From Cellvibrionales bacterium UBA4451 (GTDB taxonomy: Bacteria; Pseudomonadota; Gammaproteobacteria; Pseudomonadales; Porticoccaceae): a DNA stretch of 64,000 nucleotides. Positions 7,949-36,604 of this stretch are shown here, one piece after another. Below the pieces are notes generated by a model. It saw only the letters and a program-made list of their open reading frames with translations. It ran no database searches and was not told where the DNA came from. Both the position numbers and the translations under genes were made by a program. Location of the stretch: positions 89,454 through 153,453 of the forward strand of contig DGPB01000009.1 of assembly GCA_002390285.1 (NCBI GenBank). Reading direction: 5' to 3'. Position 1 is the stretch's first letter, and every line of letters starts with the position of its first letter.

Positions 7949-8431
7949 ATGATTCGCATAAGCACTCAACGCATCACGTGGCTCAGTCTGTTATTGATAT
8001 CAATAATAGTCTTTGCATCAACTGCGATGGCAGATAAGGGGCAGCAGACATGGTTCGACTCCTCTAGAGGGGATCGAGAGAGATTGTCTCCCTGGGAATA
8101 CTCACAGAGTGATATTCACGCCAATAGGCGTGACAACGCCATAAAACTTGCCGATAAGAGTGGTGAATCTGGAGGCAACTATTCCAATAGTAATCGCCAT
8201 AAACGCTATGAAGAGTTAACACCGGAGCAACGTGAGAAATTACAAAAACGTCGTGAGCATTTTAAGTCGTTACCACCAGAAGAGCGTGAACGTATTCAAA
8301 AGGCGCGAGATAAATTCCATAGTATGCCGGCAGAAGAACGTCAGAAACTGAAGGATAAATGGCGCTTAATGACGCCAGAAGAAAGGAAAAGAGCTAAAAA
8401 ACACAGGAAAAATAAGGATCACAATGATTGA
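7949..8431 (+). CDS. DUF3106-like periplasmic protein
   Basis: Signal peptide; about four helical repeats of (Y/F/W)xx(L/M)(T/P)(P/A)E(Q/E)R. Confidence 0.7.
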   Translation: MIRISTQRITWLSLLLISIIVFASTAMADKGQQTWFDSSRGDRERLSPWEYSQSDIHANRRDNAIKLADKSGESGGNYSNSNRHKRYEELTPEQREKLQKRREHFKSLPPEERERIQKARDKFHSMPAEERQKLKDKWRLMTPEERKRAKKHRKNKDHND

Positions 8432-8444
8432 CCTGAAAAAAATG

Positions 8445-8481
8445 AATAAAAAAACCGGCCTAAATGGCCGGTTTTTTTATT
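8445..8481. terminator. Bidirectional Rho-independent terminator
   Basis: AATAAAAAAACCGGCC-TAAAT-GGCCGGTTTTTTTATT. Confidence 0.9.
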
Positions 8482-8488
8482 GGCTAAA

Positions 8489-9418
8489 TCAGAGTTTAGT
8501 ATTTAATTCAGGTATCACATCGAATAAATCGGCAACTAAACCGTAGTCTGCCACCTGAAAGATGGGTGCTTCTTCATCCTTGTTAATTGCCACTATCACT
8601 TTACTGTCTTTCATCCCTGCCAAATGTTGAATTGCACCCGAAATACCTACTGCAATATATAAGTCAGGAGCCACAATTTTACCCGTTTGACCCACTTGCA
8701 TATCGTTGGGAACAAAACCAGCGTCCACTGCAGCCCGCGATGCTCCTACAGCGCCTCCTAGTTTATCAGCGAGATTTTCAAGTAGTTTGAAGTTTTCCCT
8801 GCTGACCATACCGCGACCACCAGCAACCACAACACGTGCGGCGGTAAGCTCAGGTCGCTCAGAGACGGCAAGCTCTTCACTAATAAAGGTAGACGTACCT
8901 GAGTCATGAATACTTGTCAGTGTTTCAATACTGGCCGTACCCCCTTCAGCTGAAACTGCTTCAAAGGCCGTCGTTCTTACGGTCAAAACCTTAATCGAAT
9001 CACTACTTTGAACTGTGGCAATGATGTTGCCTGCATAAATAGGTCGTTTAAACGTATCGGGACTTTCGACGCTACTGATATCGGAGATTGCTTGAACATC
9101 CAGCAGTGCAGCAACGCGTGGTGTGATGTTTTTTCCTGTGGTTGTTGCTGGAGCTAGTATATGGGAGTAATTAGTAGCAACTTCAGCGACTAAAGGCGCA
9201 ATATTTTCAGCTAATCTATGCTCATAAGCTGGGTTGTCGGCCACAAGCACTTTTCCTATCCCGGGGATTTTAGCGGCTTTATTAGCTGCGCCACTACAGC
9301 CTGAGCCCGCAATTAATAGATCAATATCGCCACCTATGGCCTGAGCAGCAGCAACGGTACAAAGTGTTGCTGGTTTCAGACTGCTATTATCATGCTCAGC
9401 AAGTACCAGAATGCTCAT
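8489..9418 (-). CDS. etfA: Electron transfer flavoprotein alpha subunit
   Basis: [17 protein letters not shown] and [17 protein letters not shown] motifs. Confidence 0.97.
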
Positions 9419-10167
9419 CAGATCACCTTCGCTTCGTTTTTCAGTTTATCCAGTAGGTCATCGACACTTATCACTTTAATACCAGCAGCTCGTTCAGCGG
9501 GTGATTCGACCTTCAGTGTGGTGACTCGAGGTGTTGTATCGACACCAAGTTCTTCAGGCGTCGTCGTTTCCATTGGTTTTTTCTTGGCCTTCATAATGTT
9601 CGGCAAAGAGGCATAGCGTGGCTCGTTGAGGCGTAAGTCTGTCGTCACGATAGCGGGAAGACGGAGACCAACTGTTTGCAGACCGCCATCAATTTCACGC
9701 GTTACATTAGCATTAGCGCCATCGATGATTAACTCTGATGCGAATGTGCCCTGCGGATAACCGGTCAATGCACCGAGCATCTGTCCAGTCTGATTGTTAT
9801 CGCCATCAATGGATTGTTTGCCCATGAGGATAAGGTCAGGATTTTCCTGATCACAAATAGCTTTTAGACACTTGGCGATCGCGAGTGGCTCAAGATCAGT
9901 ATCGGACGCGATAAAAATACCTCGATCAGCCCCCAATGCTAGAGATGTACGGATCTGTTCTTGTGCCTTCTGAGGGCCAATGGAAACGACGACGACTTCC
10001 GTAGTTGAATCTTTTTCTTTAAGGCGTACTGCCTCTTCAACAGCAATTTCACAAAATGGGTTAATCGACATTTTTACATTGTTCAGGTCAACACCCGAGC
10101 CATCGGCTTTTGGTCTTACCTTGACGTTGTAGTCGACAACGCGTTTGACCGCTACAAGTACTTTCAT
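9418..10167 (-). CDS. etfB: Electron transfer flavoprotein beta subunit
   Basis: [25 protein letters not shown] and [13 protein letters not shown] motifs. Confidence 0.97.
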
Positions 10168-10428
10168 GGAATACCCTTTGATCTTGGTCAGTTATTTGGA
10201 GAGGCTGAATTGGGATAAGTAGAACACCCTTATGACCCCGGGAAGGGCGTAATCATGCCGCCCTGACGCTGCCAAATCAAGGTAACTGCACGTTTTATCT
10301 ACATCTAATTTTGACCCATGAGTACCGCCTAGTGAGTTGAGAAAACCACATAGCACCCTAAGGTTAGAAAGGCTAAAATCAGCGCTTTCAGACATCTTCA
10401 TAAAAACAAGAGCCCGAAGGAGAATTCC

Positions 10429-12066
10429 GTGGAACGTGAATATATGGATTACGATGTTGTCATCGTCGGTGCGGGCCCCGCAGGTTTGTCAGCCGCCTGC
10501 CGTCTGAAACAGATCAATGCAGAACTTTCCATTGTTTTAGTGGAAAAAGGTTCTGAAGTGGGTGCTCATATTCTATCAGGTGCCGTATTTGAGCCCACGG
10601 CACTTAATGAGCTATTCCCTGATTGGAAAGAAGTGGGTGCACCTCTGAACACTGAGGTGAAAGACGATAATATTTATGTTTTAACAGAAAACCAGGGGCT
10701 TAAAATCCCATCATTCTTTGCTCCCAAAACGATGCACAATCAGGGTAACTACATCATCAGCCTGGGCAACCTTTGTCGTTGGTTAGCAGAGCAGGCTGAA
10801 AATTTAGGTATCGAAATATTCCCAGGTTTTGCCGTTGCTGATGTTCTTTATGATGAGAATGCTGCCGTCACAGGGGTTGTTACAGGTGACATGGGTGTTG
10901 GTCCGAATGGAGAACATAAAGATGCCTACATGCAAGGTATGGAGTTACGTGGCAAATACACGTTATTTGCCGAAGGTTGCCGCGGCCATCTAGGTAAGCA
11001 GCTTATTGAAAAATTCTCACTCGACACCGGCTCAGAAGCACAGCACTATGGATTGGGAATCAAGGAGTTATGGTCAATACCTACAAAACAACATAAAGAA
11101 GGCCTAGTGATTCATACGGCAGGCTGGCCTCTTGATGAGAGCAGCTCTTCTGGCGGTGGATTTTTGTATCATTTGGAAAATAACCAAGTGGCAGTGGGCT
11201 TAATCACCGACCTCTCCTACTCCAACCCACATGTGAGTCCATTCGACGAATTTCAACGCTACAAACACCACCCGGTTATTAGTCAGCATCTGAATGGTGG
11301 TGAACGTATTTCCTATGGTGCCCGCGCTCTGGTCAAGGGTGGCTTACAATCCCAACCTAAAATGACATTTCCTGGCGGATTATTAATTGGTGACAATGCG
11401 GGAACGCTGAACTTTGCCAAGATCAAGGGTATTCACTGCGCTATGAAATCCGGCATGCTTGCTGCGGAATCGGTAGCAGTGGCTATCAGCACTGAGCGGA
11501 AACATGATGAGCTTACCGAATATACCGTTGCTTATAAAGCTAGCTGGGCCTACAAAGAGCTTCACCTACAGCGTAATTTTGGTCCTGCTCAGCACAAGTG
11601 GGGAAATATTCTTGGCTCAGCTTATGCCTTCATTGATATCAACCTATTCAACGGTAAGCTGCCCTGGACACTGAAAGACCCAAAACCCGATCACTCCAAG
11701 CTAAAATTAGCAGCCGAATGTAAAAAAATTGATTACCCAAAGCCTGATAACAAGCTCAGCTTTGACAAACTGACGTCAGTATTCCTATCGAACACCAATC
11801 ATGAAGAAGCACAACCCTGTCACCTGATCTTAAAAAATGCAGATGTGCCTATTAGTCACAACCTGCCGTTATTTGATGAACCTGCTCAGCGTTATTGCCC
11901 AGCTGGTGTCTATGAGGTTATTGATAAAGAGGATGGCTCCAAGCAGTTTCAGATAAACGCGCAGAACTGTGTCCACTGTAAAACCTGTGATATTAAGGAC
12001 CCAACCCAGAATATTGTGTGGGTAGCGCCTGAAGGCTCTGGTGGACCTAATTATCCCAATATGTAA
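10429..12066 (+). CDS. ETF-ubiquinone oxidoreductase
   Basis: IVGAGPAGL FAD site; C-terminal 4Fe-4S 'RYCPAGVYE...NCVHCKTCDIKDP'; divergent from etfB. Confidence 0.96.
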   Translation: MEREYMDYDVVIVGAGPAGLSAACRLKQINAELSIVLVEKGSEVGAHILSGAVFEPTALNELFPDWKEVGAPLNTEVKDDNIYVLTENQGLKIPSFFAPKTMHNQGNYIISLGNLCRWLAEQAENLGIEIFPGFAVADVLYDENAAVTGVVTGDMGVGPNGEHKDAYMQGMELRGKYTLFAEGCRGHLGKQLIEKFSLDTGSEAQHYGLGIKELWSIPTKQHKEGLVIHTAGWPLDESSSSGGGFLYHLENNQVAVGLITDLSYSNPHVSPFDEFQRYKHHPVISQHLNGGERISYGARALVKGGLQSQPKMTFPGGLLIGDNAGTLNFAKIKGIHCAMKSGMLAAESVAVAISTERKHDELTEYTVAYKASWAYKELHLQRNFGPAQHKWGNILGSAYAFIDINLFNGKLPWTLKDPKPDHSKLKLAAECKKIDYPKPDNKLSFDKLTSVFLSNTNHEEAQPCHLILKNADVPISHNLPLFDEPAQRYCPAGVYEVIDKEDGSKQFQINAQNCVHCKTCDIKDPTQNIVWVAPEGSGGPNYPNM

Positions 12067-12072
12067 TCTCAA

Positions 12073-12108
12073 CCGTTAAAAAACCGGCCTCTAGGCCCCT
12101 TTTAACGG
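12073..12108. terminator. Stem-loop/terminator after ETF-QO
   Basis: CCGTTAAAA...GGCCT-CT-AGGCC...TTTTAACGG. Confidence 0.6.
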
Positions 12109-12247
12109 AAGCCGATACTCATTCACTATCTCGCATCTATCGAAAGTAAGAAGCCTAAAAAATCAGCTTTTTTTACTGTTCTAGTATGGAGGTGATTAGG
12201 GATTAATAAGATTGTTTAAAATCATCGTGGTGGTACTACAGCTGAGC

Positions 12248-12913
12248 CTAGAAGAGCTTATTGTCACGTAGCTGACCACGGTTTCCCATGGTAATACCAA
12301 TATTGGCTACAAACTGAAGGAACTCGTCCTTGTCTTCAACATCTGCACCGTAGCTGACATTGAAGTAGGCCTCCACCGCTCCTTGAGCCAGAGCCCAACA
12401 AGCTAGATAGTGATAATGTGGTGGGACATCTTCAAGTATTCCCTTGTTGATGAGCTTGGCTATCATACTGTTTAGAGCATCAATGTTGGATCGGCGCATT
12501 GCGTGCAATTCTGACAGTTTACTCTCTACCTCTTCACTTCCTTGTAATTTGACCTCCAGTTGTTGAACCAGCCTATCCAGTCCAGGATCTGACAACCTAG
12601 CTTGAAAATAGGCGCGAGCTGCTGCACCCGGGTCTCCAGCTTCAGTCGCCTCAATACCAATCCGAAGGTTTTCTGTGATACTTCTCTCGTAGTCGAGAAC
12701 GATGCGCATCAGAATTTCGGTTTTGGTGAGGAAGTGCTTGTAGATAGTCCCTTTACCGACACCTGCTTCTCGAGAAATTGCTGAGACTGTTACCTTATCT
12801 ATACCATCTCGAATTAACAGGTATAAGGCTCTTTCTATAATTCGCTCTTCGCGCGCGAGGAAGTGCTTCTTCTTTTCGCGGATTCTGTCTGTACTGTCGG
12901 ACGGTCTAGACAT
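12248..12913 (-). CDS. TetR/AcrR-family transcriptional regulator
   Basis: HTH 'VTVSAISREAGVGKGTIYKHF'. Confidence 0.9.
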   Translation of the reverse strand: MSRPSDSTDRIREKKKHFLAREERIIERALYLLIRDGIDKVTVSAISREAGVGKGTIYKHFLTKTEILMRIVLDYERSITENLRIGIEATEAGDPGAAARAYFQARLSDPGLDRLVQQLEVKLQGSEEVESKLSELHAMRRSNIDALNSMIAKLINKGILEDVPPHYHYLACWALAQGAVEAYFNVSYGADVEDKDEFLQFVANIGITMGNRGQLRDNKLF

Positions 12914-13171
12914 TGATGGCTATTTTTATTTCGTCAGCGGGCGCTGATTGTCTGATGAAAACCAAAAGGCTGTCAATGGTCACGTTCGCTATTAGCCAAA
13001 TATAGGGTGATATGGGTGAGTCATCAATACGGATCGTAGGCAGCTAAACATAATATTCAATGCTATAACTCAGTTAACTCGTGTCTAGGCGTACCAAACT
13101 ATGGTGACCCTATTCTTTCCCTCAGGTATATTATATTCAGAATAAGTAAGACAACGCTCCCTGGATCAGAC

Positions 13172-14104
13172 ATGACGAGCAGTAAAAAAATAAATTTTAC
13201 TCCTATCCTTATTATATTTTTTAGCGTGATTATCTTGTCGAAATCGGTAAAAGCACTAGATGTAGAACCAGGGCTCTGGGCCCATATTCCCGTTGAAAGA
13301 CACTTCATAGGTATGGGTTATGTAAAGACTGAAGCAGACATCTTGTTTGACCCCACCTTGAAATTAGAAGATGTTGAGATGGATATGGATACCTGAGTCG
13401 CTAAATATATCTATAGTTTCGAAAGCTTTGGAAAAAGCTCACGGATTGACATCACCCAAGGCTATCAAGAAGGACATTGGAAAGGGTTATTAGACGGGGC
13501 TTATGCTGAAACTACACGCAACGGACCATCAGATAGTTTTATACGTTATGCCATCAGTCTCTACGGTGCTCCTCCATTAAAATCAGGTGATTATGTGGCG
13601 TACAGGAGAAAGCAGGATGGTGAAACCATTGTAGGTGCAGGATTAGCCGTTAGGTTACCAACCGGTGATTACGACAAAGACCTTTTAATCAATCTCGGAC
13701 AAAATCGTTTTGCATTTCGTCCACAGCTTGGTATTGAGCATAACCGTGGTCCGTGGACGTTTGAGGCCACATCAGAGGTGGCCTTCTATACCAGTAACAA
13801 TGAGTTTTATAACGGCAATCGTCTAGAGCAAGACCCAACACTTACGCTTGGCGCAAGTGCTGAGTACACCTATCGTCCAGGATTGCGTGGAACAATTGGC
13901 TTTGCATACGATTATGGTGGAGAAACATCGGTTAATGACGCAAGAAATGACGACCGCAAACAGAATGTAGGCTGGTCAGCGAGTATCTCCTATCCATTAG
14001 GCCCTACATCTGGCGTTAAGTTTGCTTGGGTCAAAACTGAAACCCAAGAATCTACGGGACTAGATTCGGAGTCTTTTGTTTTTGCTATTGTGACAAGCTT
14101 TTAG
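13172..14104 (+). pseudogene. Outer-membrane 'transporter' (MetA-pathway/phenol degradation-like beta-barrel) interrupted by one in-frame TGA at 13394-13396
   Basis: ORFs 13172..13396 and 13595..14104 are in the same frame. The intervening sequence is open (VAKYIYSFESFGKSSRIDITQGYQEGHW...). LPTGDYDKDLLINLGQNR motif; terminal Phe. Confidence 0.8.
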
Positions 14105-14354
14105 TGTTATACCGAACTTCTGGATCATAGCCGGAGGATTTTGAAAAAAATGACTGCCATATGGTTTTACTATCACAGCGGTAATAATTTACTTTTGCTT
14201 CGAAGGCAGCTTGATGGCAGCGTTTGTGCGTCATAAATCCTGTTTCTTGTACAAAAAAGTCTTCAGTAAATAAATCGGCCTTAACCACCAAATCATACGT
14301 CGGGTAAAATAGTGTTACGCCGACTAATGCTAGAATAATCAGTATAGCTTTCAT
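14085..14354 (-). CDS. Small hypothetical exported/membrane-anchored protein
   Basis: GGAG RBS before ATG at 14354; N-terminal hydrophobic stretch; two Cys; no recognised family. Confidence 0.55.
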   Translation of the reverse strand: MKAILIILALVGVTLFYPTYDLVVKADLFTEDFFVQETGFMTHKRCHQAAFEAKVNYYRCDSKTIWQSFFSKSSGYDPEVRYNTKSLSQ

Positions 14355-14443
14355 AGGTAGCTCCATCTCCGCGAAATTTACAGTGTCGCATTATATAGTT
14401 AGTATTCAGGACCGTGGTTCTAAAAAGTGCATTTTTTAACGAA

Positions 14444-15616
14444 TTACTCCCCTAGCTTTAATCTTTTATCTCTTAACCAAAACCAGACGATGATCATAGC
14501 GATAAAACTGGCTAGTGCTCCGATATTGAAAGCCCACAATGGCTGTATATCCCAGATAACCCCAGCTAAATATGATCCCAGTGCCCCGCCCGCCCCAAAG
14601 CAAAAAGCACTGTATAGAGCTTGAGCTTTTCCTTGGTTAGCCGGTTCAAACAAACGACGAATACAATCTATGGCAGCGGCATGAAACGCACCAAAGGTGA
14701 ACGCATGAAAGATTTGAGCTAACACTAACAGTAACAATTGCTCTGTGCCGTAGCCAATAAGTAGCCAGCGTAGCGTGGCTATAAACAGGCAGCCAAGCAT
14801 AATCTCCCTAACGCCGAACCGAAGTAGCAATCGATGCATCAAGATAAAAAGAAAGACTTCCGCTACGACGCCAACTGACCATAGCATGCCAATACCACTT
14901 CGACTGTAGCCAAAAGATTCCATATAGAGGCTGAAAAAACTGTAGTAAATACCATGAGAAAACTGCATCAGTAGCCCTGCTAGGAGGAAGGCAAGAACAG
15001 CAGGTTGCTTTAGAGTCGCCCTGAATTTATGAGCCGCCTTCTCATGACGTTGATGATGAGGATTAGGTACGAATAAACTGCTGAGAAAGATACCCGCCAG
15101 AAGTATTAGGCCAATGATGGGCAATGTTTGAATATCGTGGGTATCAAACCAAAAGCCACTGCCCAGAACGAAAATGATAAAGCCGATTGATCCCCATAAG
15201 CGAATTCGACTATAGGTTTCCGGTCGTTGGCGAAGAAAACTGATAGTGATAACTTCATGTTGGGGCAGTATGGCATTCCAAAAAAAACTGTAGCCCGCTA
15301 ATACTAATGCTATTGACCAAAATTTCTGGTCGATAAATAGTCCGATAAAACAGAGGAATGAGAGCAAGGCACCCAGACGAATGATCAGTAGCCTTTTGCC
15401 TGTGTAGTCGGCGAGCCAGCCCCAAAGGTTTGGAGCAACAATTTTGGTCGCCATGGGAATGGCCAGTAAAAGGCCTATGTCAGCAGAGGAAAACCCTTGA
15501 GACTTTAGGTAGAGGGACCAGTAGGGGTAAAGAGCGCCGAGAAGGCCAAAAAAGCAAAAATAAAAGGCCGATAATCGCCAGTAAGGGACCGCTGGTTGCG
15601 CCTTTTCTCCTACCAT
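14444..15616 (-). CDS. MFS transporter (HcaT/nucleoside:H+ symporter-like)
   Basis: About 12 TM helices; 'YWRLSAFYF', 'YSRIRLWGSIGF'; downstream of aroC. Confidence 0.85.
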   Translation of the reverse strand: MVGEKAQPAVPYWRLSAFYFCFFGLLGALYPYWSLYLKSQGFSSADIGLLLAIPMATKIVAPNLWGWLADYTGKRLLIIRLGALLSFLCFIGLFIDQKFWSIALVLAGYSFFWNAILPQHEVITISFLRQRPETYSRIRLWGSIGFIIFVLGSGFWFDTHDIQTLPIIGLILLAGIFLSSLFVPNPHHQRHEKAAHKFRATLKQPAVLAFLLAGLLMQFSHGIYYSFFSLYMESFGYSRSGIGMLWSVGVVAEVFLFILMHRLLLRFGVREIMLGCLFIATLRWLLIGYGTEQLLLLVLAQIFHAFTFGAFHAAAIDCIRRLFEPANQGKAQALYSAFCFGAGGALGSYLAGVIWDIQPLWAFNIGALASFIAMIIVWFWLRDKRLKLGE

Positions 15617-15619
15617 TGG

Positions 15620-16723
15620 TTAACTAGTTTTTGGGCGTGTATGCAGTTCTAGGCCCGTATTAACATCAGCGTTTTGAGCACGATTTCGTAGAAAATGATC
15701 CATCAGAGTGATCGCTAGCATAGCTTCTGCTATAGGCGTAGCACGAATACCAACACAGGGGTCATGACGACCTTTGGTGATAACCTCAATGGGGTTACCG
15801 TGCACGTCCACCGAGCGTCCGGGAATACGGAGGCTACTTGTAGGTTTCAATGCGATGTGAGCAATAATGGTTTGCCCCGAAGAGATACCACCGAGGATTC
15901 CACCGGCATTATTAGAAAGAAAACCTTCAGGGGTGATTTCATCACGGTGTTCGGTGCCTGTTTGGGCAACAGAATCAAACCCAGCACCAATTTCAACACC
16001 TTTTACCGCATTGATACTCATCAGGGAGTGAGCAATCTCAGCATCGAGACGGTCAAAAACGGGCTCTCCCAAACCTTCTGGAACATTAGTGGCAGTTACT
16101 GTTATTCGAGCACCAATAGAATTCCCATCCTTTAGCAATTTCTGCATAAAGGCTTCCATCTCCGGCACTTTGTCCGGATCTGGACAGAAAAAAGGGTTAT
16201 TTGACACTTCTTCCAACAAGACTTTTTCAGCTTTAATTGGGCCTAACTGGGACAGATAACCCTGTACCTCAATACCCATTTTTTGTTTTAGGTATTTCTT
16301 GGCAATGGCCCCGGCCGCTACCCGCATGGCAGTTTCACGAGCTGATGCTCGACCACCACCTCGGTAATCACGAAAACCGTATTTCTGATGATAGGTATAG
16401 TCAGCGTGGGCCGGACGGAACTGGTCTTTAATGTTCGAGTAATCCTTGGAGCGTTGGTCGGTGTTTTCAATGACCAGTCCAATGGAAGTACCCGTGGTTT
16501 TCCCCTCAAAGACACCGGAAAGAATTTTGACCACATCCCCTTCCTGGCGTTGTGTGGTATAACGCGACTGGCCGGGCTTGCGACGATCTAGATCGTGCTG
16601 CATATCCTCGACAGATAGCTCAAGCCCTGGAGGACAACCATCGACAATACAGCCAAGCGATGGCCCGTGGCTTTCGCCAAACGTGGTCACAGTAAATAGC
16701 TTGCCAATAGTATTGCCTGACAT
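15620..16723 (-). CDS. aroC: Chorismate synthase
   Basis: [24 protein letters not shown] and GRHDPCV motifs. Confidence 0.97.
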
Positions 16724-16831
16724 AACAACTTCCAAATTTAGAATATTAACGTCTTTTATAGTGCTCAGCTGTCCGAGCTAAAACTATTAGAGAACAATAG
16801 TGGATATTATACGATGATTATTCTTATGTCG

Positions 16832-17752
16832 TTACGATGAAATAAATTCTTCTCGGTGTTCAAAAAGCTGTTCTGCGGTTAAGAGGAAGATACCGTGCCC
16901 TCCCCGCTCAAATTCCAACCACATAAAAGGTACATGTGGGAATGCCTCCTCCAGTGCAGTCGAGGAATTACCAACTTCTACCACCAGTATTCCTTGCTCG
17001 TTCAGGTGTTCCCCAGCTTCTAGCAACAACTGACGGGTAAAGTCGAGTCCGTCAGTACCTGATGCCAGGCCAATTTCAGGTTCATGGTGATATTCACGGG
17101 GCATTTCTGCTAGGTCTTCTGCATCAACGTAGGGTGGATTCGTGACAATTAAGTCGAACCGACGTGATTCAAGTCCTGAAAACATATCCGAATGTACAGT
17201 ACTGACTCGATTAACCAACTGGTGAAGGAAGATGTTTTCCTCAGCAACAGCCAGTGCATCGGTTGAGATGTCACTCAACGTGACATTGGCATCTGGAAAA
17301 TAGTGTGCGCAGGCTATACCGATACAACCACTACCCGTGCAGAGATCTAGAATGCTCTTTGGGAGCTTAACGAGCCAGGGTTGAAACTGTGCTTCAATTA
17401 ATTCGGCAATAGGTGAGCGTGGGATCAGTACGCGCGGATCGACGTTAAATTTAAAGCCTGCGAACCAAGCTTCACCGGTAAGGTACGGCGCTGGCACTAA
17501 TTCTTTAATACGTCGGTTAAATAAGCGCGTAATATCTGCTTTTTCTTCAGTTGAGAGGGGCTGCTCCAAAATAGTACTATCAGAATCCCAAGGTAGTGAT
17601 AGTGAAAATAGTACTAAGGCAAGGGATTCATCCCAGGCATTGTCAGTCCCATGGCCAAAAAAGAGGCCCTCTTCATCAAACGTCTCTGCCCCACATCGAA
17701 TAAAATCACCGATGGTTATCAGGTTTTCTGGCATCTTTTGCATGGCGTCCAT
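16832..17752 (-). CDS. prmB: Ribosomal protein L3 N5-glutamine methyltransferase
   Basis: [35 protein letters not shown] motifs. Confidence 0.95.
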
Positions 17753-17831
17753 TGTAGCGGGACAACAGATAAATGGCTTTACGTTTCTGGCAGGCTCACG
17801 TACGGTTACGTACCCAAAACCACTACCTTTT

Positions 17832-18392
17832 ATGAGAATTATGTTGAATACTTCTGATAGTTACACCCAGATTATTGAATCTACCGGCGAAGACATCTCT
17901 CGCCCTGGATTGGTGGATACACCAAAGCGTGCAGCCAAGGCATTTGAGTTCCTTACTCGTGGCTATCATGAAACCTTAGCTGAGGTGATCAATGACGCGC
18001 TGTTTCCTTCAGAATTCAGTGAAATGGTCATCGTTAAGGATATTGAGCTCTATTCACTTTGTGAACATCACTTATTGCCCTTTATCGGTAAATGCCATGT
18101 CGCTTACATTCCCAACGGTAAAGTGCTTGGGCTATCTAAAGTGGCTCGCATAGTTGACATGTTCGCTCGCCGCCTTCAAATCCAGGAAACACTGGTTTCT
18201 CAGATTGCCAATACCATTGAGGAAGTTACCGATGCTCAGGGTGTTGCGGTGATTATTGAGGCCAAGCATATGTGTATGATGATGCGTGGAGTAGAAAAAC
18301 AGAACTCAGTAATGAAAACATCCTCAATGCTAGGCTCGTTCCGTGACAACCAGGCCACCCGTAGCGAGTTTCTTTCACTGATCAATTGTTAG
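17832..18392 (+). CDS. folE: GTP cyclohydrolase I
   Basis: [31 protein letters not shown] and HMCMMMRGV motifs. Start reassigned to ATG 17832 (or 17841). Confidence 0.95.
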
Positions 18393-18472
18393 TCACTGAT
18401 ATCTATCCATTCAGCCTAGCCATTATGTGGCTGGGCCGAGCTTAGCCTTTAATGCCTCAGCCGTTATAACTA

Positions 18473-18928
18473 TCAGGGGTGAGTTAACCACTGCATCTCA
18501 GCACAGCCGCGACCAAAAGTGATGGTGTTCAGACAGGCAAGCGAGCTGGTGTCGATTGACCATCCTATCCCCGGCTTATCTGTCAGGTATTCTAGTATCT
18601 GGCCAATAAGTGGCTGATGACTGAGGAGTAATACTCGTTCGACATCAAGGGTCTCAACACAATATTCCACCGCATTAATATGACCTTCGGAGCGCAGAGC
18701 ATCCTCAAAAAGCAATGCTTCCTGATAGTTTAGCGTATCCGTAAGTACTTTAAGTGTCTGCCTAGCTCGAAGAGTTGGACTACAGAGCACAAGCTGTAGT
18801 TGAGACAACACATCAATATGTTGTTGCACCACTTGACGGGTGTCTGTTTCACCCTGGGCTGACAATGAACGCTCACCACAGGACGAATCATAAGGCGCGT
18901 CACCGTGACGAAATAAGTAAATAAGCAT
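18473..18928 (-). CDS. sixA: Phosphohistidine phosphatase SixA-like
   Basis: RHGDA, CSPTLRARQT, LLLSHQP motifs. Confidence 0.85.
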   Translation of the reverse strand: MLIYLFRHGDAPYDSSCGERSLSAQGETDTRQVVQQHIDVLSQLQLVLCSPTLRARQTLKVLTDTLNYQEALLFEDALRSEGHINAVEYCVETLDVERVLLLSHQPLIGQILEYLTDKPGIGWSIDTSSLACLNTITFGRGCAEMQWLTHP

Positions 18929-18939
18929 GAGAACCGCTG

Positions 18940-19359
18940 TTACGCAGTTTTATTGTTGTCTTCGTTTTTTGGCTCTTCCTCGGTATCGACAAATGTTGGA
19001 ACGTCATCTAAATCTGAAGGTTCTTCAGTCGTTTCAGTTTCCACAAATTCAGCTTCAATTATATCTCCAGCTGGTGGAGGATCAATTTCTGGCCAATCTG
19101 AAAATGGAAATGGCTTATCATCACTATTGAAGGTAAGAAATAGAAAGACCTGATAGGACCACTTCGACGCACCCTGCCCCAGATCACGTAAATTATTATT
19201 ACCATCGCCCATCACGAGCAGCAGAATAAATTGCAAGATGGCAACAACCCAGATAACCATCCGAGCCACGACAGACAAGACCCCAAATAACACCATATAA
19301 AGCAGGCGAATCCAGGTATGAACATTCAGTAAATTGGTTTTTGTTTGTTGTTCCATCAT
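18940..19359 (-). CDS. DUF4389-like membrane protein
   Basis: 'WIRLLYMVLF', 'FLTFNSDDKPFPFSDWP'; between gpsA and sixA. Confidence 0.75.
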   Translation of the reverse strand: MMEQQTKTNLLNVHTWIRLLYMVLFGVLSVVARMVIWVVAILQFILLLVMGDGNNNLRDLGQGASKWSYQVFLFLTFNSDDKPFPFSDWPEIDPPPAGDIIEAEFVETETTEEPSDLDDVPTFVDTEEEPKNEDNNKTA

Positions 19360-33836: not shown

Positions 33837-35114
33837 ATGAGCAACAAGAAATTCCACCTCTCTGAAGAAGGCACAGACACTTCGATAGAGCTACCGGTTC
33901 TAAGCAGCACTCTTGGTCAAGATGTCATCGACATCGCCAGGGTCCCTGAAACAGGGTGCTTCACGTTTGATCCCGGTTTTGGTGCTACAGCCTCTTGTGA
34001 ATCAGCAATCACCTTCATTGATGGGGATAAAGGTGTTCTTTTACACCGTGGCTATCCCATTGAGCAGTTAGCAGCAAATTCTGATTTCCTGGAAACCTGC
34101 TACCTTCTTATTAATGGTGAACTGCCTTCAGATTCAGAGAAGGAAGCATTCGAACAGACCATAAAATCCCACAACAACGTAGAGAGTGCCGTAGAACAAT
34201 TTATGAGTGGCTTCAGTCAGGGCTCCCATCCTATGGCCATGCTTTGTGCTGTTGTTGCTGCTATGTCAGCGACTTACAACGACACTACAGACGTTTCTAA
34301 TGCGGATGACAGAATGCTCACTGTTAACCGACTGATTGCCAAGATGCCTATTTTGGCCGCCATGTGTCACAGACATTTCTCAGGCCTGCCCTATGTGTCG
34401 ACAAACAACGACCTTAGTTATGCTGAAAACTTCCTCAACATGATGTTTGGAACACCGGGTGCTAAGAGCACGGTCAGCCCTGTATTAACTAAAGCAATGG
34501 ATCTGATTTTCCTTCTCCATGCCGATCACGAACAAAATGCGTCCACGTCAACAGTTCGTCTATCAGGTTCTTCTGGCGCAAATCCATACGCCTGTATAGC
34601 GAGTGGAATCGCTGCACTTTGGGGGCCGGCACACGGCGGCGCGAACCAAGCTGTGCTCGAAATGCTAGAAGAAATAGGTGATGAGAAACACATTGATGAG
34701 TTTATTCTTCGCGCCAAGGATAAAGAAGACGGTTTCCGCCTCATGGGCTTTGGACACAGAGTTTACAAAAACTTTGACCCACGCGCTAAAGTGATGAAGG
34801 AAAGCTGTGATGAAGTCCTCGCTGAACTTGGCCTAGAACACGATCCACTGCTGAAAATTGCCAAGCGTCTAGAACAAATTGCACTGGAAGATGAGTACTT
34901 TGTTGAGAAAAAACTCTACCCAAATGTTGATTTCTATTCCGGCATTATCATGAAGGCAATCGGTATTTCTCCCGAAATGTTCACTGTTATCTTTGCCACA
35001 GGCCGCACCGTTGGCTGGATATCTCACTGGAATGAAATGCTGAGCAATCCATACCGAATTGGCCGCCCACGTCAGCGCTATACTGGTTATGCCCAGCGGG
35101 ACTATCCTGCCTAA
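33837..35114 (+). CDS. gltA: Type II citrate synthase
   Basis: [34 protein letters not shown]. Confidence 0.98.
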
Positions 35115-35135
35115 CATTCTGCATTATAAAGAATT

Positions 35136-35170
35136 AAAAAGGCCGCCCTGGTAACAGTGGCGGCGTTTTT
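35136..35170 (+). terminator. Rho-independent terminator after gltA
   Basis: GCCGCC-CTG-GTAA-CAG-T-GGCGGC followed by a T run. Confidence 0.8.
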
Positions 35171-35178
35171 ATTATGGA

Positions 35179-35263
35179 CTTTAACAATCTTATATCGACC
35201 AATGTTCAAATATCTATTGATCCGATGAATATTCCTTTTTCATTAGTGTTGCTCTGTTACGTG
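35179..35263 (-). mobile_element. Degenerate attC-like site after the distal Rap1a gene
   Basis: Minus strand: TAG-CACGTAAC...GTTAAAG. CACGTAAC is the exact complement of GTTACGTG preceding the same gene. Internal L-box pairing is poor. Confidence 0.4.
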
Positions 35264-35632
35264 CTACCTGCATGGATGCGGGAATGCGTCTAAGAATGCC
35301 TTCATTGTCAAAAAGACTTCTCGTTCATGCAATTCAGTAGGATTTTTCCTTAAATACTCCAGCACAATACTCATTGACTGTCCGTTTGTAATACCTCCTT
35401 TTGGGAAGCAAACTTTTAGTGAGCCATCATTTTCCATAACCTTCATAATACTGCTAACACCATGGACAAAGCCTACGCAAAAGCCAAAAGACATCGAATC
35501 ACCATCTTCGTCGGCATTTAAAAAACTTTCTGCTTCCGCACACTTTTTTAGTAGTTCATTGCCGTCGGCAAAACTTAAAGGTGAAAAGAACAGAACTATG
35601 GTTAGCATTATTATCTTAATTGTTGGCTGCAT
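35264..35632 (-). CDS. Rap1a/Tai-family immunity-like protein
   Basis: Signal peptide then DGNELLKKC...CVGFVHGV...VCFPKGGITNGQ...YLRKNPTELH...AFPHPC; four-Cys pattern; AAGGA RBS. Confidence 0.85.
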   Translation of the reverse strand: MQPTIKIIMLTIVLFFSPLSFADGNELLKKCAEAESFLNADEDGDSMSFGFCVGFVHGVSSIMKVMENDGSLKVCFPKGGITNGQSMSIVLEYLRKNPTELHEREVFLTMKAFLDAFPHPCR

Positions 35633-35646
35633 TAACTCATCCTTTT

Positions 35647-35741
35647 CACGTAACTGAGTGAATCACTTTAGCAGATGTTGATTACAGGCTGAATAAGCAA
35701 CTTGAAAATATCCAATCGGCTCAGTGAAAGGTTTATTAGGT
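35647..35741 (-). mobile_element. attC-like imperfect hairpin between the 54-aa ORF and the distal Rap1a gene
   Basis: Minus strand ACCTAAT-AAACC-TTTCACTG...AGTGATT-CACTCA-GTTACGT. Spacer and box lengths 5/8...7/6 as in attC. TCACT/AGTGA, AGC/GCT and GAT/ATC pairings; ~94 bp. Confidence 0.5.
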
Positions 35742-35742
35742 G

Positions 35743-35907
35743 CTACTCGCATGGGTAAGCATCTAGCTTTTGCTTCAAATAATTCAAGTCTCTGTCTGTA
35801 GCATTAACCTCATCCCAGATAGGGTCATCTTCGGCGAGTAATACCTCTTTGAGACACTCTAGCTTGCGTATTTCGGCCTCAATAGAGTCTCTTGTGGCTA
35901 CTTGCAT
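35743..35907 (-). CDS. Unannotated 54-aa acidic helical peptide
   Basis: Below ORF-track cut-off: MQVATRDSIEAEIRKLECLKEVLLAEDDPIWDEVNATDRDLNYLKQKLDAYPCE. GGAGG RBS 7 nt before ATG; start overlaps the end of the upstream Rap1a gene. Confidence 0.6.
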   Translation of the reverse strand: MQVATRDSIEAEIRKLECLKEVLLAEDDPIWDEVNATDRDLNYLKQKLDAYPCE

Positions 35908-36263
35908 GGGTACGCCTCCAGGAAAGCATCCATTATCAAATAGCCTTTGTATTCATGTAGTCGAAGAGGATTTTTCCTTAAATACGCTAGAACAATTCGT
36001 ACACTCTGCTCATTTGAAAGCCCGCCTTTTGGTGTGCAGATTTTAAATGGGCCATCCATTCTTGTCTGACTCATTCACACCCCGTCGACTATGCCAAGGC
36101 AAAAGGTACGTTTATGGACATCATCAGTTTTTTCGTTATTTTGCAATTTTTCTGATACTGCGCATTCTTCTAATAAGCTATTCCCATCGACGCCGGCATA
36201 ACTCGAAGGTGAGAAGAGTAGGAAGCCAGAAAGTAATACTATGACATGAATTATGGGGCGCAT
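35898..36263 (-). pseudogene. Second Rap1a/Tai-family gene interrupted by an in-frame TGA at 36075-36077
   Basis: N-part ...DGNSLLEEC...FCLGIVDGV* continues in frame as MSQTRMDGPFKICTPKGGLSNEQSVRIVLAYLRKNPLRLHEYKGYLIMDAFLEAYPCK*, collinear with 35264..35632. Confidence 0.85.
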
Positions 36264-36380
36264 TTGAATGTTCCTTTTCACCTATTAAATGCAACTTTAC
36301 CAGAAGGGAATTGATGCTATCAAGCGGAGTGATAATCAGGAAAATACCCTAGAAAGTGTCCCCAAAAATAATAATCCAAT

Positions 36381-36413
36381 AAAAAAGGCCAACTATTTAA
36401 GTTGACCTTTTTT
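36381..36413. terminator. Terminator downstream of tRNA-Ala
   Basis: AAAAAAGGCCAAC-TATTTAA-GTTGACCTTTTTT. Confidence 0.85.
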
Positions 36414-36445
36414 GCTGTATCCCTTGCGATGCAAGGGCTTGCGTT

Positions 36446-36521
36446 TGGTGGAGCCTAGCGGGATCGAACCGCTGACCTCAACACTGCCAGTGTTGCGCTC
36501 TCCCAGCTGAGCTAAGGCCCC
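36446..36521 (-). tRNA. tRNA-Ala (GGC)
   Basis: GGGGCCTTAGCTCAGCTGGGAGAGCGCAACACTGGCAGTGTTGAGGTCAGCGGTTCGATCCCGCTAGGCTCCACCA; 76 nt, anticodon GGC, encoded CCA. Confidence 0.98.
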
Positions 36522-36604
36522 AAATCTGTTGCTGATAACCTTATACAGGCTTTACTTACTCTCTATAAGCCCAGCTGTAACCCGCTGCACCCAAAGGGCA
36601 TAAA

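What the first reader, a model, noticed from the sequence alone, without database searches (positions are those of the whole stretch)
35179..36290. Integron-like gene-cassette array (no integrase in the window) behind tRNA-Ala, carrying orphan immunity genes
Seen (minus strand): module 1 starts AATAGGTG-AAAAGGA..ATG and ends TAG-CACCTAAT. Module 2 starts GTTACGTG-AAAAGGA..ATG and ends TAG-CACGTAAC. Each module's start octamer is complementary to its own end octamer (8/8 for module 2, 7/8 for module 1), and the G/C difference co-varies between modules. Between them lies a ~94-bp imperfect hairpin with attC-like box spacing ending at G/TTACGT. Similarity continues past the stop codons (CCATGCGAGTAGCACCTAATA vs CCATGCAGGTAGCACGTAACA, 17/21), which protein selection does not explain. 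Established: such self-complementary ends are the hallmark of integron cassettes, and integrase-less clusters (CALINs) exist. Caveats: cores deviate from RYYYAAC/GTTRRRY and the second hairpin is degenerate. Inference: a decayed or non-canonical cassette system stockpiling toxin-immunity genes.
Basis: partly seen in the sequence, partly recalled or inferred. Interest (0 to 1): 0.8.

Follow-up and report, generated by a model that had tools for sequence, protein, structure and literature searches.

The report
Orphan Rap1a immunity-gene islet, not integron
Behind tRNA-Ala lies a small, decaying, horizontally acquired block of two "orphan" anti-toxin (Rap1a/Tai4-type) genes in a bacterium without a type VI secretion system; its matching end-octamers are real, but nothing else supports an integron-like cassette mechanism.

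Summary
The octamers are present as described: 7/8 and 8/8 complementary, with the G/C co-variation. The integron reading fails the tests I could run.

- **attC boxes:** no R''/R' pair, even with one mismatch per box.
- **Hairpin:** the 94-nt stretch folds no better than shuffled sequence (z -0.4 and -0.8).
- **Spacer constraint:** against a 92%-identical sister array it diverges at about the synonymous rate, without compensatory changes.
- **Octamers in the sister array:** complementarity drops to 4/8 and 4/8.
- **Integrase and copies:** no IntI, no further motif copies, and only these two Rap1a genes in the genome.
- **Population:** six contigs compared base by base differ at 3 of 1461 positions, one an uncompensated change in an octamer.

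What is there is a 1.2-kb low-GC block. It holds rap1 (killed by an in-frame TGA), a coupled 54-codon ORF, intact rap2, and the cut-off leader of a third unit.

The block replaces the genes that most relatives carry between tRNA-Ala and gltA. In another species the same block sits in an integrase-bearing island at tRNA-Leu, at 92% identity against 77-79% for core genes. The genus shows no T6SS sheath gene and no Tae4.

Verdict: a remnant orphan-immunity islet, which is a known kind of thing. Interest is low.

The parts
36446..36521 (-). tRNA-Ala(GGC). The foreign block begins directly after its 3' end.
   Evidence: ARAGORN. Sequence diverges from the nearest relative G026 right after CCA+AA.
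36294..36323 (-). Promoter-like site TTGATA-18 nt-TAAAGT with TG before the -10 box. It is the likely promoter of the rap array.
   Evidence: Consensus scan. A related element stands upstream of the sister array and of P0002/P0003. It is single-copy in this genome.
36264..36286 (-). Leader of unit 1: octamer S1 AATAGGTG (36286-36279) followed by AAAAGGA (ribosome-binding site) and ACATTCAA.
   Evidence: High-identity homology with the sister array starts at 36280. Position 36281 is G/T polymorphic in the population.
35898..36263 (-). rap1, a Rap1a-family gene with an in-frame TGA at 36077-36075, so a pseudogene.
   Evidence: Pfam PF18602, 52.1 bits when TGA is read through. '1 TGA' inside the match. 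A 62-aa N-terminal fragment is called on all seven contigs shown, and the codon is invariant in the six contigs aligned. The sister array has an independent deletion of about 320 bp here.
35743..35907 (-). ORF54. Its GGAGG and ATG lie inside rap1's last codons. It is an acidic, helical-looking peptide ending LDAYPCE, and its last 25 nt repeat rap1's tail.
   Evidence: D3, 84%. Conserved as an ORF in the sister array, with omega about 0.43 on few changes. No family hit.
35633..35742 (-). E2 trailer CACCTAAT is at 35742-35735 and S2 leader GTTACGTG-AAAAGGATGAGTTA at 35654-35633.
   Evidence: Folding is not better than shuffles. It is 97/112 identical to the sister spacer, about the synonymous rate, with changes that break pairs. 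No attC box pair.
35264..35632 (-). rap2, an intact Rap1a/Tai4-family immunity gene with an apparent Sec signal peptide (..LSFA|DGN).
   Evidence: Pfam 52.4 bits. AF2 pLDDT 85.8, and the Foldseek top hits are Tai4, Ssp1-Rap1a and Rap1a. omega 0.33 against the sister copy.
35252..35263 (-). E3 trailer CACGTAAC(AGAG). It forms the inverted repeat with S2.
   Evidence: I6, 11/12. High-identity homology with the sister array ends at 35258, inside this repeat.
35226..35242 (-). S3: TGAAAAAGGAATATTCA, the cut-off leader of a third rap unit. It is followed directly by backbone sequence.
   Evidence: Matches unit 1's leader (D7) and the P0003 leader TGAAAAGGAATATTCA. Homology with G026 resumes at about 35226.
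35136..35170 (.). Hairpin terminator shared by gltA and the array. It is backbone sequence, conserved in G026.

Best explanation
The locus is the trimmed remnant of a horizontally acquired islet of tandem, diverged Rap1a/Tai4-family genes. These encode periplasmic immunity proteins against T6SS-delivered peptidoglycan amidases of the Tae4/Ssp1 type.

The islet lies just 3' of tRNA-Ala in an organism that has no T6SS of its own. It replaces the genes that most relatives carry between tRNA-Ala and gltA.

A sigma-70-type promoter probably drives one transcript: rap1 (dead, in-frame TGA), the coupled ORF54, then rap2. rap2 is exported and would protect the cell wall from a neighbour's effector (inferred function).

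The 'cassette ends' are the short conserved leader and trailer that all members of this narrow Rap1a clade inherited from a duplicated gene unit. The leader is GYTAYRTG-AAAAGGA, which includes the ribosome-binding site. The trailer is TAG-CACNTAA.

The two consensus motifs happen to be roughly complementary across the whole clade. The perfect own-to-own match in this genome is not maintained elsewhere. The array moves as a whole block inside larger integrase- and IS-bearing islands, and it is then eroded by deletion. It does not move gene by gene through attC-type recombination.
For: - **Identity of the genes:** Pfam Rap1a at 52 bits for both genes. The AF2 model has pLDDT 85.8, and the best PDB matches are Tai4 (6ije, 6ijf), Ssp1-Rap1a (4bi8) and Rap1a (3zfi), with probability 0.99-1.0 and a clear gap to the rest.
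- **Orphan status:** VipB found in 0 of 35 genus genomes and Tae4 in 0 of 35.
- **Foreign origin:** GC 38-40% against 47.6%. None of the 18 relatives whose tRNA-Ala/gltA interval was recovered carries a Rap1a gene there, and the array's DNA is absent from all 34 other genus genomes. Most relatives hold other genes in that interval, on the gltA strand.
- **Block mobility:** the same block, rap1-ORF54-rap2, occurs at 92.4% identity in another species. There it sits in an island after tRNA-Cys/tRNA-Leu, with a P4-like integrase and an IS240-family transposase. Core genes of that species are only 77-79% identical.
- **Decay:** TGA in rap1 here, and an independent deletion of about 320 bp in the sister copy. 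A third unit is truncated at different points in the two arrays.
- **Leader and trailer are clade features:** four paralogs about 50% identical in protein share them. Identity rises about 22 nt before the ATG and falls about 10 nt after the stop. More distant Rap1a genes lack them.
- **No selection on the putative attC or the octamers:** spacer identity is 97/112, against dS 0.14 for rap2. The sister octamers are 4/8 and 4/8 complementary. A population polymorphism sits in S1 without compensation.
- **Fixed structure:** all seven long contigs shown (of 21 read, from several samples) have the same gene order. The six that could be aligned show 3 variable sites in 1461 bp.
Against: - The own-unit complementarity (8/8 and 7/8, with two co-varying positions) is nominally unlikely. 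I estimate about 1% for the co-variation alone.
- High-identity homology with the sister array starts and stops within a few bases of the octamers (36280 and 35258).
- P0002 and P0003 share a 21-nt identical trailer although they are only 53% identical in protein.
- Both arrays are cut inside the leader of a third unit.
- Together these points hint that the unit borders are recombination-prone, which plain inheritance does not predict.
- Neither expression nor immunity function was tested.
- How the block reached the tRNA-Ala site is unknown. There is no integrase next to it and no repeat of the tRNA 3' end.
Confidence: 0.8

Rival explanations
1. Integron-type cassette array (a CALIN). Each unit would be a cassette whose 5' TTRRRY-like end pairs with its own R'' box, and the E2-S2 spacer would be a degenerate attC recombined by an IntI elsewhere.
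For: Own-unit octamer complementarity of 7/8 and 8/8, with co-variation. The S consensus GTTAYGT and the E consensus ACRTAAC each match GTTRRRY and RYYYAAC at 6 of 7 positions. The E2-S2 distance of about 100 nt is within the attC size range.
Against: - No R''/R' box pair in the region even with one mismatch per box, where the genome background predicts 1.85.
- The hairpin is not more stable than shuffles.
- The spacer evolves at the neutral rate, with pair-breaking changes.
- The sister octamers are 4/8 and 4/8 complementary.
- No IntI: the best TIGR02249 hit is 87 bits against a 265 cut-off, in a genome 91% complete.
- No other copies.
- Fixed order in the population and in the sister species.
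- The second 'attC' would be only about 13 nt long.
Confidence: 0.04
2. Homology-driven unit exchange. The conserved leader (with the signal-peptide coding region) and the conserved C-terminal coding region with its trailer would act as short recombination arms. Rap1a units would then be swapped, inserted (Campbell-type) or deleted between arrays without any dedicated site-specific recombinase.
For: - Identity profile with conserved ends and a variable middle.
- A sharp change of identity at TGAAAAGGA between this array and the sister array. The leader upstream is P0003-like here and P0002-like there.
- A 25-nt tail duplication flanking the ORF54 body (D3).
- An identical 21-nt trailer on P0002 and P0003.
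- Truncations of the third unit inside its leader in both arrays.
Against: Only two arrays and two singletons are known, so break-point coincidence rests on very few events. The conserved ends are also explained by protein constraint (signal peptide, YPC motif) and by the ribosome-binding site. No unit-level polymorphism is seen in the population.
Confidence: 0.1
3. In-place tandem duplication of one resident Rap1a gene, with no horizontal transfer.
For: Two adjacent paralogs on the same strand with a similar leader and trailer.
Against: The paralogs are only 47% identical. No relative has a Rap1a gene at this site. The whole block is found at 92% identity in a different island of a species whose core genes are 77-79% identical. 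GC is low.
Confidence: 0.03
4. RNA-level function. The leader and trailer octamers of one cistron would pair in the mRNA, for processing or stability.
For: Complementarity sits exactly at the cistron borders in this genome.
Against: The stem is only 8 bp across about 380 nt. It is not conserved in the sister array or in P0002. An uncompensated polymorphism occurs in S1.
Confidence: 0.03

Closest known systems
Rap1a / Tai4 immunity proteins of the Ssp1/Tae4 T6SS amidase effectors (Serratia marcescens, Agrobacterium, Salmonella; PMC3533786, PMC3852654, PMC6277958)
   Same: Pfam PF18602 above the cut-off. Small all-helical fold with best structural matches to Tai4 and Rap1a. N-terminal export signal. 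Conserved cysteines, including the C-terminal YPC. Paralogs in tandem, as in the Serratia rap genes.
   Different: No adjacent effector and no T6SS in the whole genus. Sequence identity to the solved proteins is only 16-19%. One copy is a pseudogene.
Acquired interbacterial defence (AID) clusters and orphan immunity islets (Ross et al., bioRxiv 10.1101/471110; Salmonella Typhi immunity islet PMC7400221; Vibrio cholerae orphan immunity genes PMC8189183)
   Same: Orphan T6SS immunity genes carried on horizontally moving DNA in a cell that lacks the matching toxin. The genes sit in a tandem arrangement.
   Different: This one is tiny (two genes plus remnants). It occurs in a small-genome gammaproteobacterial genus rather than in Bacteroidales. 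In this genome it is stranded without any mobility gene, and it is partly decayed.
rAID-1 (recombinase-associated AID) and integron cassette arrays / CALINs
   Same: An array of promoter-less small genes on one strand, with short repeated sequences at the gene borders.
   Different: No XerD-like or IntI recombinase at the array. No attC-type sites. No repeated intergenic element beyond a leader of about 22 nt and a trailer of about 10 nt. No unit-wise variation between genomes.
tRNA-linked genomic islands with P4-type integrases
   Same: The block lies directly 3' of a tRNA gene. The sister copy lies in an island next to tRNA-Leu with a P4-like integrase (Arm-DNA-bind_3, Phage_int_M, Phage_integrase).
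   Different: In this genome there is no integrase and no direct repeat of the tRNA 3' end, and only 1.2 kb is left.

Membership tests
Integron cassette array / CALIN | attC sites with R'' (RYYYAAC) and R' (GTTRRRY) boxes, mutually complementary, about 50-150 nt apart | tested here: not met
   Script scan found 0 pairs in 35150-36460 on either strand, with 0 or 1 mismatch per box and at least 6/7 complementarity. The genome background predicts 1.85 per 1311 bp.
Integron cassette array / CALIN | attC folds as a stable imperfect hairpin (R and L boxes), and the structure is conserved | tested here: not met
   z -0.37 and -0.84 against shuffles. The sister spacer is 97/112 identical, about the synonymous rate, and its changes break the putative pairs.
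Integron cassette array / CALIN | Hit to the attC covariance model (IntegronFinder attc_4.cm) | not testable with these tools
   As far as I know, Rfam holds no attC model. IntegronFinder was not available.
Integron cassette array / CALIN | Integron integrase IntI in the genome (needed for a complete integron, not for a CALIN) | tested here: not met
   TIGR02249 best hit is 87 bits against a cut-off of 265. The best two hits are 301- and 303-aa frames of the size of XerC/XerD. The genome is 91% complete.
Integron cassette array / CALIN | Cassette-wise gain, loss or reordering among relatives | tested here: not met
   The sister array has the same order. The seven long contigs shown (of 21 read) have an identical arrangement, and the six aligned show 3 variable sites in 1461 bp.
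Rap1a/Tai4 immunity family (PF18602) | Profile match above the curated cut-off | tested here: met
   52.4 and 52.1 bits against 27.7.
Rap1a/Tai4 immunity family (PF18602) | Rap1a/Tai4 helical fold | tested here: met
   AF2 pLDDT 85.8. The Foldseek top seven hits are Tai4, Ssp1-Rap1a and Rap1a, with probability 0.99-1.0 and TM about 0.65 normalised to the target. E-values are only 0.015-0.08.
Rap1a/Tai4 immunity family (PF18602) | Neutralises a Tae4/Ssp1-type amidase in the periplasm | not testable with these tools
   This needs an experiment. The export signal was judged by reading only (MQPTIKIIMLTIVLFFSPLSFA|DGN).
Rap1a/Tai4 immunity family (PF18602) | Cognate effector gene next to it (cognate rather than orphan immunity) | tested here: not met
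   No Tae4 match in 35 genus genomes (with no positive control) and no T6SS sheath gene. The neighbours are tRNA-Ala and gltA. The genes are therefore orphans.
rAID-1 (Ross et al.) | XerD-like tyrosine recombinase gene at the 5' end of the array | tested here: not met
   tRNA-Ala and gltX lie upstream. The genome's tyrosine recombinases are on other contigs.
rAID-1 (Ross et al.) | Repetitive intergenic sequences between many co-oriented immunity genes | tested here: not met
   There are only two units plus remnants. The one true spacer has no repeat elsewhere in the genome.
tRNA-integrated genomic island | Integrase gene and a direct repeat of the tRNA 3' end at the far border | tested here: not met
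   No repeat better than shuffles and no integrase in the interval. The sister copy does lie in an integrase-bearing island at tRNA-Leu.

The most novel reading that the evidence does not exclude
The gene units of this Rap1a clade are bracketed by an ancestral 8-bp inverted repeat (GYTAYRTG ... CACNTAAY). The repeat coincides with the limits of paralog homology, with the break points between this array and the sister array, and with both truncations of the third unit. It could be the minimal site of an unrecognised, non-integron system that shuffles single immunity genes between islands, catalysed by an island-borne recombinase or by short-homology recombination.
Probability: 0.07. Interest if true: 0.65.

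Novelty: new member of a known kind. Interest (0 to 1): 0.2.

Why it matters
This is one more case of orphan T6SS immunity genes kept by a bacterium that cannot fire a T6SS itself. Here the host belongs to a small-genome gammaproteobacterial genus, and the locus appears fixed in a population found in many metagenomes.

It supports the idea that defence against neighbours' toxins is traded horizontally: the block is 92% identical between species whose core genes are 77-79% identical. It also shows such defence being lost piece by piece when it is no longer needed.

It does not add a new mobility mechanism. It is also a useful caution: short complementary motifs at gene borders within a single genome can imitate cassette ends.

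Tried and rejected
- **Integron/attC reading:** rejected on box scan, folding, conservation, integrase search, copy number and population structure.
- **Repeated element in this genome:** the promoter-like element TTGATA..AATTCC.. is duplicated around the sister array. I tested whether it is a repeated element or att site here. nhmmer finds only the one copy, so I dropped it.
- **More arrays of the clade:** I searched with a profile in the 5.8-billion protein set, in genome contigs (one distant Acidobacteriaceae hit) and in metagenome contigs. That gave 18 loci, each with a single Rap1a gene, and no ORF54 homolog. The more distant homologs lack the leader and trailer.
- **Sequence search of solved structures:** no hit. 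Only the fold comparison linked the protein to Rap1a/Tai4.
- **PADLOC:** no hits for ORF54, rap2 or the neighbours of P0002 and P0003.
- **tRNA 3'-end repeat as an att site:** none found.
- **Leader or trailer motifs in relatives' tRNA-Ala/gltA intervals:** none found.
- **Reads:** Circular junctions, read-level variants and transcription could therefore not be checked.
- **Sister metagenome record:** it could not be searched as a whole.
Full report
**Layout of the locus**

The minus strand of the window reads as follows:
- gltX at 38170-36656.
- tRNA-Ala(GGC) at 36521-36446.
- About 160 nt holding two hairpins and a promoter-like site, TTGATA-18-TAAAGT, at 36323-36294.
- Leader S1, AATAGGTG-AAAAGGAACATTCAA.
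- rap1 at 36263-35898.
- A 54-codon ORF at 35907-35743, which starts inside rap1's last codons.
- Trailer E2, TAG-CACCTAAT.
- A 110-nt spacer ending in leader S2, GTTACGTG-AAAAGGATGAGTTA.
- rap2 at 35632-35264.
- Trailer E3, TAG-CACGTAAC.
- Then AGAGCAACACTAA-TGAAAAAGGAATATTCA.
- The terminator shared with the convergent gltA (33837-35114, plus strand).

**Check of the observation**

The octamers, their 7/8 and 8/8 complementarity, the co-varying positions and the 17/21 similarity across the stops are all present. The S2/E3 repeat extends to 11/12 (I6).

Three things differ from the description.
- rap1 is interrupted by an in-frame TGA at 36077-36075.
- 'Module 1' is composite. rap1's own stop is followed by CCACAAGA. 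The CACCTAAT trailer belongs to ORF54, whose last 25 nt repeat rap1's last 25 nt at 84% (D3).
- The inter-module 'hairpin' is not more stable than dinucleotide shuffles, with z -0.37 and -0.84.

**What the genes are**

- Both rap genes match Pfam Rap1a (PF18602) at 52 bits against a cut-off of 27.7.
- An AlphaFold model of rap2, built on 14 homologs, has mean pLDDT 85.8.
- Its seven best PDB matches are Tai4 of Agrobacterium, the Ssp1-Rap1a complex and Rap1a of Serratia. Probability is 0.99-1.0 and target-normalised TM about 0.65. Every other match has probability 0.08 or less.
- These are periplasmic immunity proteins against T6SS amidase effectors (PMC3533786, PMC3852654, PMC6277958).
- By eye, both proteins start with an export signal.
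- The genome has only these two Rap1a genes.
- None of the 35 genus genomes, this one included, has a TssC/VipB match or a Tae4 match. The Tae4 search had no positive control. The genes are therefore orphans.

**Tests of the integron reading**

1. No integron integrase. TIGR02249 scores at most 87 bits against a cut-off of 265. The best two hits are 301- and 303-aa frames of the size of XerC/XerD. The genome is 91% complete.
2. The motif WTASGTGAAAAGGA has only these two exact copies. One-mismatch hits are at the level of the reversed-pattern control.
3. A script scan for R'' RYYYAAC and R' GTTRRRY, 45-140 nt apart and at least 6/7 complementary, finds none in 35150-36460, even with one mismatch per box. 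The genome-wide density predicts 1.85.
4. A sister array exists. rap2 has one close relative, P0001 at 91% identity, carried on seven metagenome contigs.
   - Their DNA matches window 36280-36231 and 35910-35258 at 92%.
   - The block is therefore the same, rap1-ORF54-rap2 in the same order.
   - rap1 there has lost about 320 bp internally.
   - The octamers there read S1' GCTGTATG / E2' CATCTAAT and S2' GTTACCTG / E3' CACCTAGA. That is 4/8 and 4/8 complementary.
   - The two central changes in unit 2 each create a C-C mismatch, so they are not compensatory.
5. The spacer proposed as attC is 97/112 identical between the two arrays. That divergence is similar to the synonymous rate of rap2 (dS 0.142, omega 0.33). 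The substitutions in the putative stems break pairs.
6. Over six units (two here, two in the sister array, and P0002 and P0003 from single contigs), own-start/own-end complementarity sums to 31. In 56 of 720 permutations the sum is as high.
   - The consensus leader GYTAYRTG and the consensus trailer CACNTAAY are roughly complementary for any pairing.
   - Unit-specific pairing is seen only in this genome.
7. Population. The exact rap2 and ORF54 proteins are indexed in 124 and 151 blocks of the assembly collection.
   - The seven long contigs shown (of 21 read, from several samples) all carry LapD-gltX-rap1 fragment-ORF54-rap2-gltA.
   - In the six that could be aligned, the 1461 bp from 35100 to 36560 differ at three sites only.
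   - One of those is a G-to-T change in S1 (36281) without a partner change.
   - The TGA is present in all six.
   - The array is therefore fixed, not fluid.

**Origin**

The tRNA-Ala/gltA interval was recovered in 18 of the 34 other genus genomes.
- Depending on the subclade it holds a 144-aa secreted protein plus a small membrane protein, or a PsiE-family gene, or two other small ORFs, mostly on the gltA strand. In a few relatives it holds almost nothing.
- None of these intervals has a Rap1a gene.
- The array's DNA is absent from all 34 other genus genomes.
- The 12 genus genomes that have a Rap1a match carry it elsewhere, and none of those loci contains tRNA-Ala, gltX or gltA.
- The nearest relative, G026 (gltA 96% identical), keeps only a remnant of the membrane-protein gene. 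Its similarity to the window stops at about 35226 on the gltA side and at the tRNA on the other side.
- The 1.2 kb from about 35227 to 36445 is therefore a replacement.
- Its GC content is 38-40% against 47.6% for the genome.

The sister block lies in an island that follows pgsA, tRNA-Cys and tRNA-Leu(TAA).
- The island starts with a P4-like integrase and an IS240-family transposase.
- Core genes on that scaffold are 77-79% identical to this genome.
- The island pieces are 92-99% identical and lie scattered in this genome.
- The block has therefore moved between species recently, as a whole.
- There is no repeat of the tRNA-Ala 3' end in the interval, so how it was inserted here is unknown.

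**What the 'cassette ends' are**

Four paralogs (rap1, rap2, P0002 and P0003) are 47-56% identical in protein.
- They share the leader (TG/CG)AAAAGGA..ATG and the trailer TAG-CAC.T...
- Mean pairwise DNA identity rises from 0.33 to 0.79 about 22 nt before the ATG.
- It stays near 0.7 over the signal peptide, drops to about 0.45-0.55 in the middle, returns to about 0.8 over the C-terminal part, and falls about 10 nt after the stop.
- More distant Rap1a genes have neither motif.
- The C-terminal YPC motif is a family-wide protein feature, which explains the similarity before the stop.
- AAAAGGA is the ribosome-binding site.
- The piece after E3, TGAAAAAGGAATATTCA, is the leader of a third unit. 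It is nearly identical to P0003's leader and is cut at the start codon, where the backbone resumes.
- By my reading, the sister array also has a leader-like octamer (GCTATCAG) shortly after its E3, followed by unrelated sequence.
- Both arrays were therefore once longer and were trimmed independently.

**Residual oddities that keep a small door open**

- The high-identity homology between the two arrays begins and ends within a few bases of the octamers.
- The leader upstream of TGAAAAGGA is P0003-like here and P0002-like in the sister array.
- P0002 and P0003 share an identical 21-nt trailer although their proteins are only 53% identical.
- The ORF54 body is flanked by a 25-nt duplication of the rap tail.

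These points fit recombination between the conserved ends of units, meaning short-homology exchange. They rest on very few events, and protein or translation constraints also account for part of them.

**Comparison with known systems**

- The proteins are members of the Rap1a/Tai4 family.
- The arrangement works like the orphan-immunity clusters known from Bacteroidales (AID, bioRxiv 10.1101/471110), Vibrio (PMC8189183) and Salmonella (PMC7400221).
- It is not a member of rAID-1, because it has no 5' XerD-like recombinase and no repetitive intergenic sequences.
- It is not an integron or CALIN either, for the reasons above.

**Limits**

- The IntegronFinder attC model could not be run.
- The immunity function is inferred from family membership.

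**Verdict**

This is an ordinary, decaying islet of orphan immunity genes. The octamer observation is real but not functional by the tests available. Interest is low.

Noticed in passing
window 36075-36077 (minus strand): The in-frame TGA in rap1 is followed at once by ATG (GTG TGA ATG). It is invariant in the six contigs aligned, and the 62-aa fragment is called on all seven contigs shown. It is therefore a fixed nonsense mutation, not a sequencing error. The sister species inactivated the same gene independently with an internal deletion of about 320 bp.
   Followed up: partly
window 35743-35907: ORF54 has a GGAGG ribosome-binding site inside rap1's last codons, and its end repeats rap1's last 25 nt. 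It is conserved as an ORF in the sister array (omega about 0.43 on 11 changes). It has no homolog in any library or in the metagenome loci searched.
   Followed up: partly
L107 (metagenome scaffold), 8249-19293: Island after tRNA-Cys/tRNA-Leu(TAA) with a P4-like integrase, an IS240-family transposase, EutBC, an SNase-domain gene and an HsdM fragment. Its pieces are 92-99% identical to segments scattered over contigs C2, C10, C11, C13 and C20 of this genome, while core genes are 77-79% identical. This indicates recent inter-species exchange of island modules.
   Followed up: partly
L075 535-555 and L076 2187-2207: P0002 and P0003 are 53% identical in protein. They still share an identical 21-nt sequence right after the stop codon (CACATCTGAAATTGCAGCAAG) and a near-identical leader, in otherwise unrelated contexts.
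   Followed up: no
L068 5596-5630 and 6569-6603: A promoter-like element, CTTGATACCCC..AATTCCGT..GC.TAAAT, is directly repeated on both sides of the sister rap array, before rap1 and before a methyltransferase gene. This genome's copy of the methyltransferase lacks the -35 half of it.
   Followed up: partly
genus genomes G002, G010, G018, G023 (loci L021, L026, L030, L032): Single Rap1a-family genes are kept even in strongly reduced genomes of the genus (about 1.2-1.7 Mb). In G023 the gene lies about 100 nt from tRNA-Leu(TAA), next to tRNA-Cys, the same tRNA pair that flanks the sister island.
   Followed up: no
relatives' gltA/tRNA-Ala intervals (L039-L066): The interval differs between subclades. 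It holds a secreted 144-aa protein plus a small membrane protein, or a PsiE-family gene, or two other small ORFs, or almost nothing (238-452 bp). The site is old and variable, but there are no shared border motifs.
   Followed up: partly
window 36446-36521 vs L039 2395-2470: The tRNA-Ala(GGC) T-stem differs from the nearest relative by two compensated pairs (GCGGG..CCGCT here, GGAGG..CTCCT there).
   Followed up: no
L076 ends (1-20 and 2238-2256): This Logan contig carries Illumina adapter sequence at both ends, so its termini are not biological.
   Followed up: no
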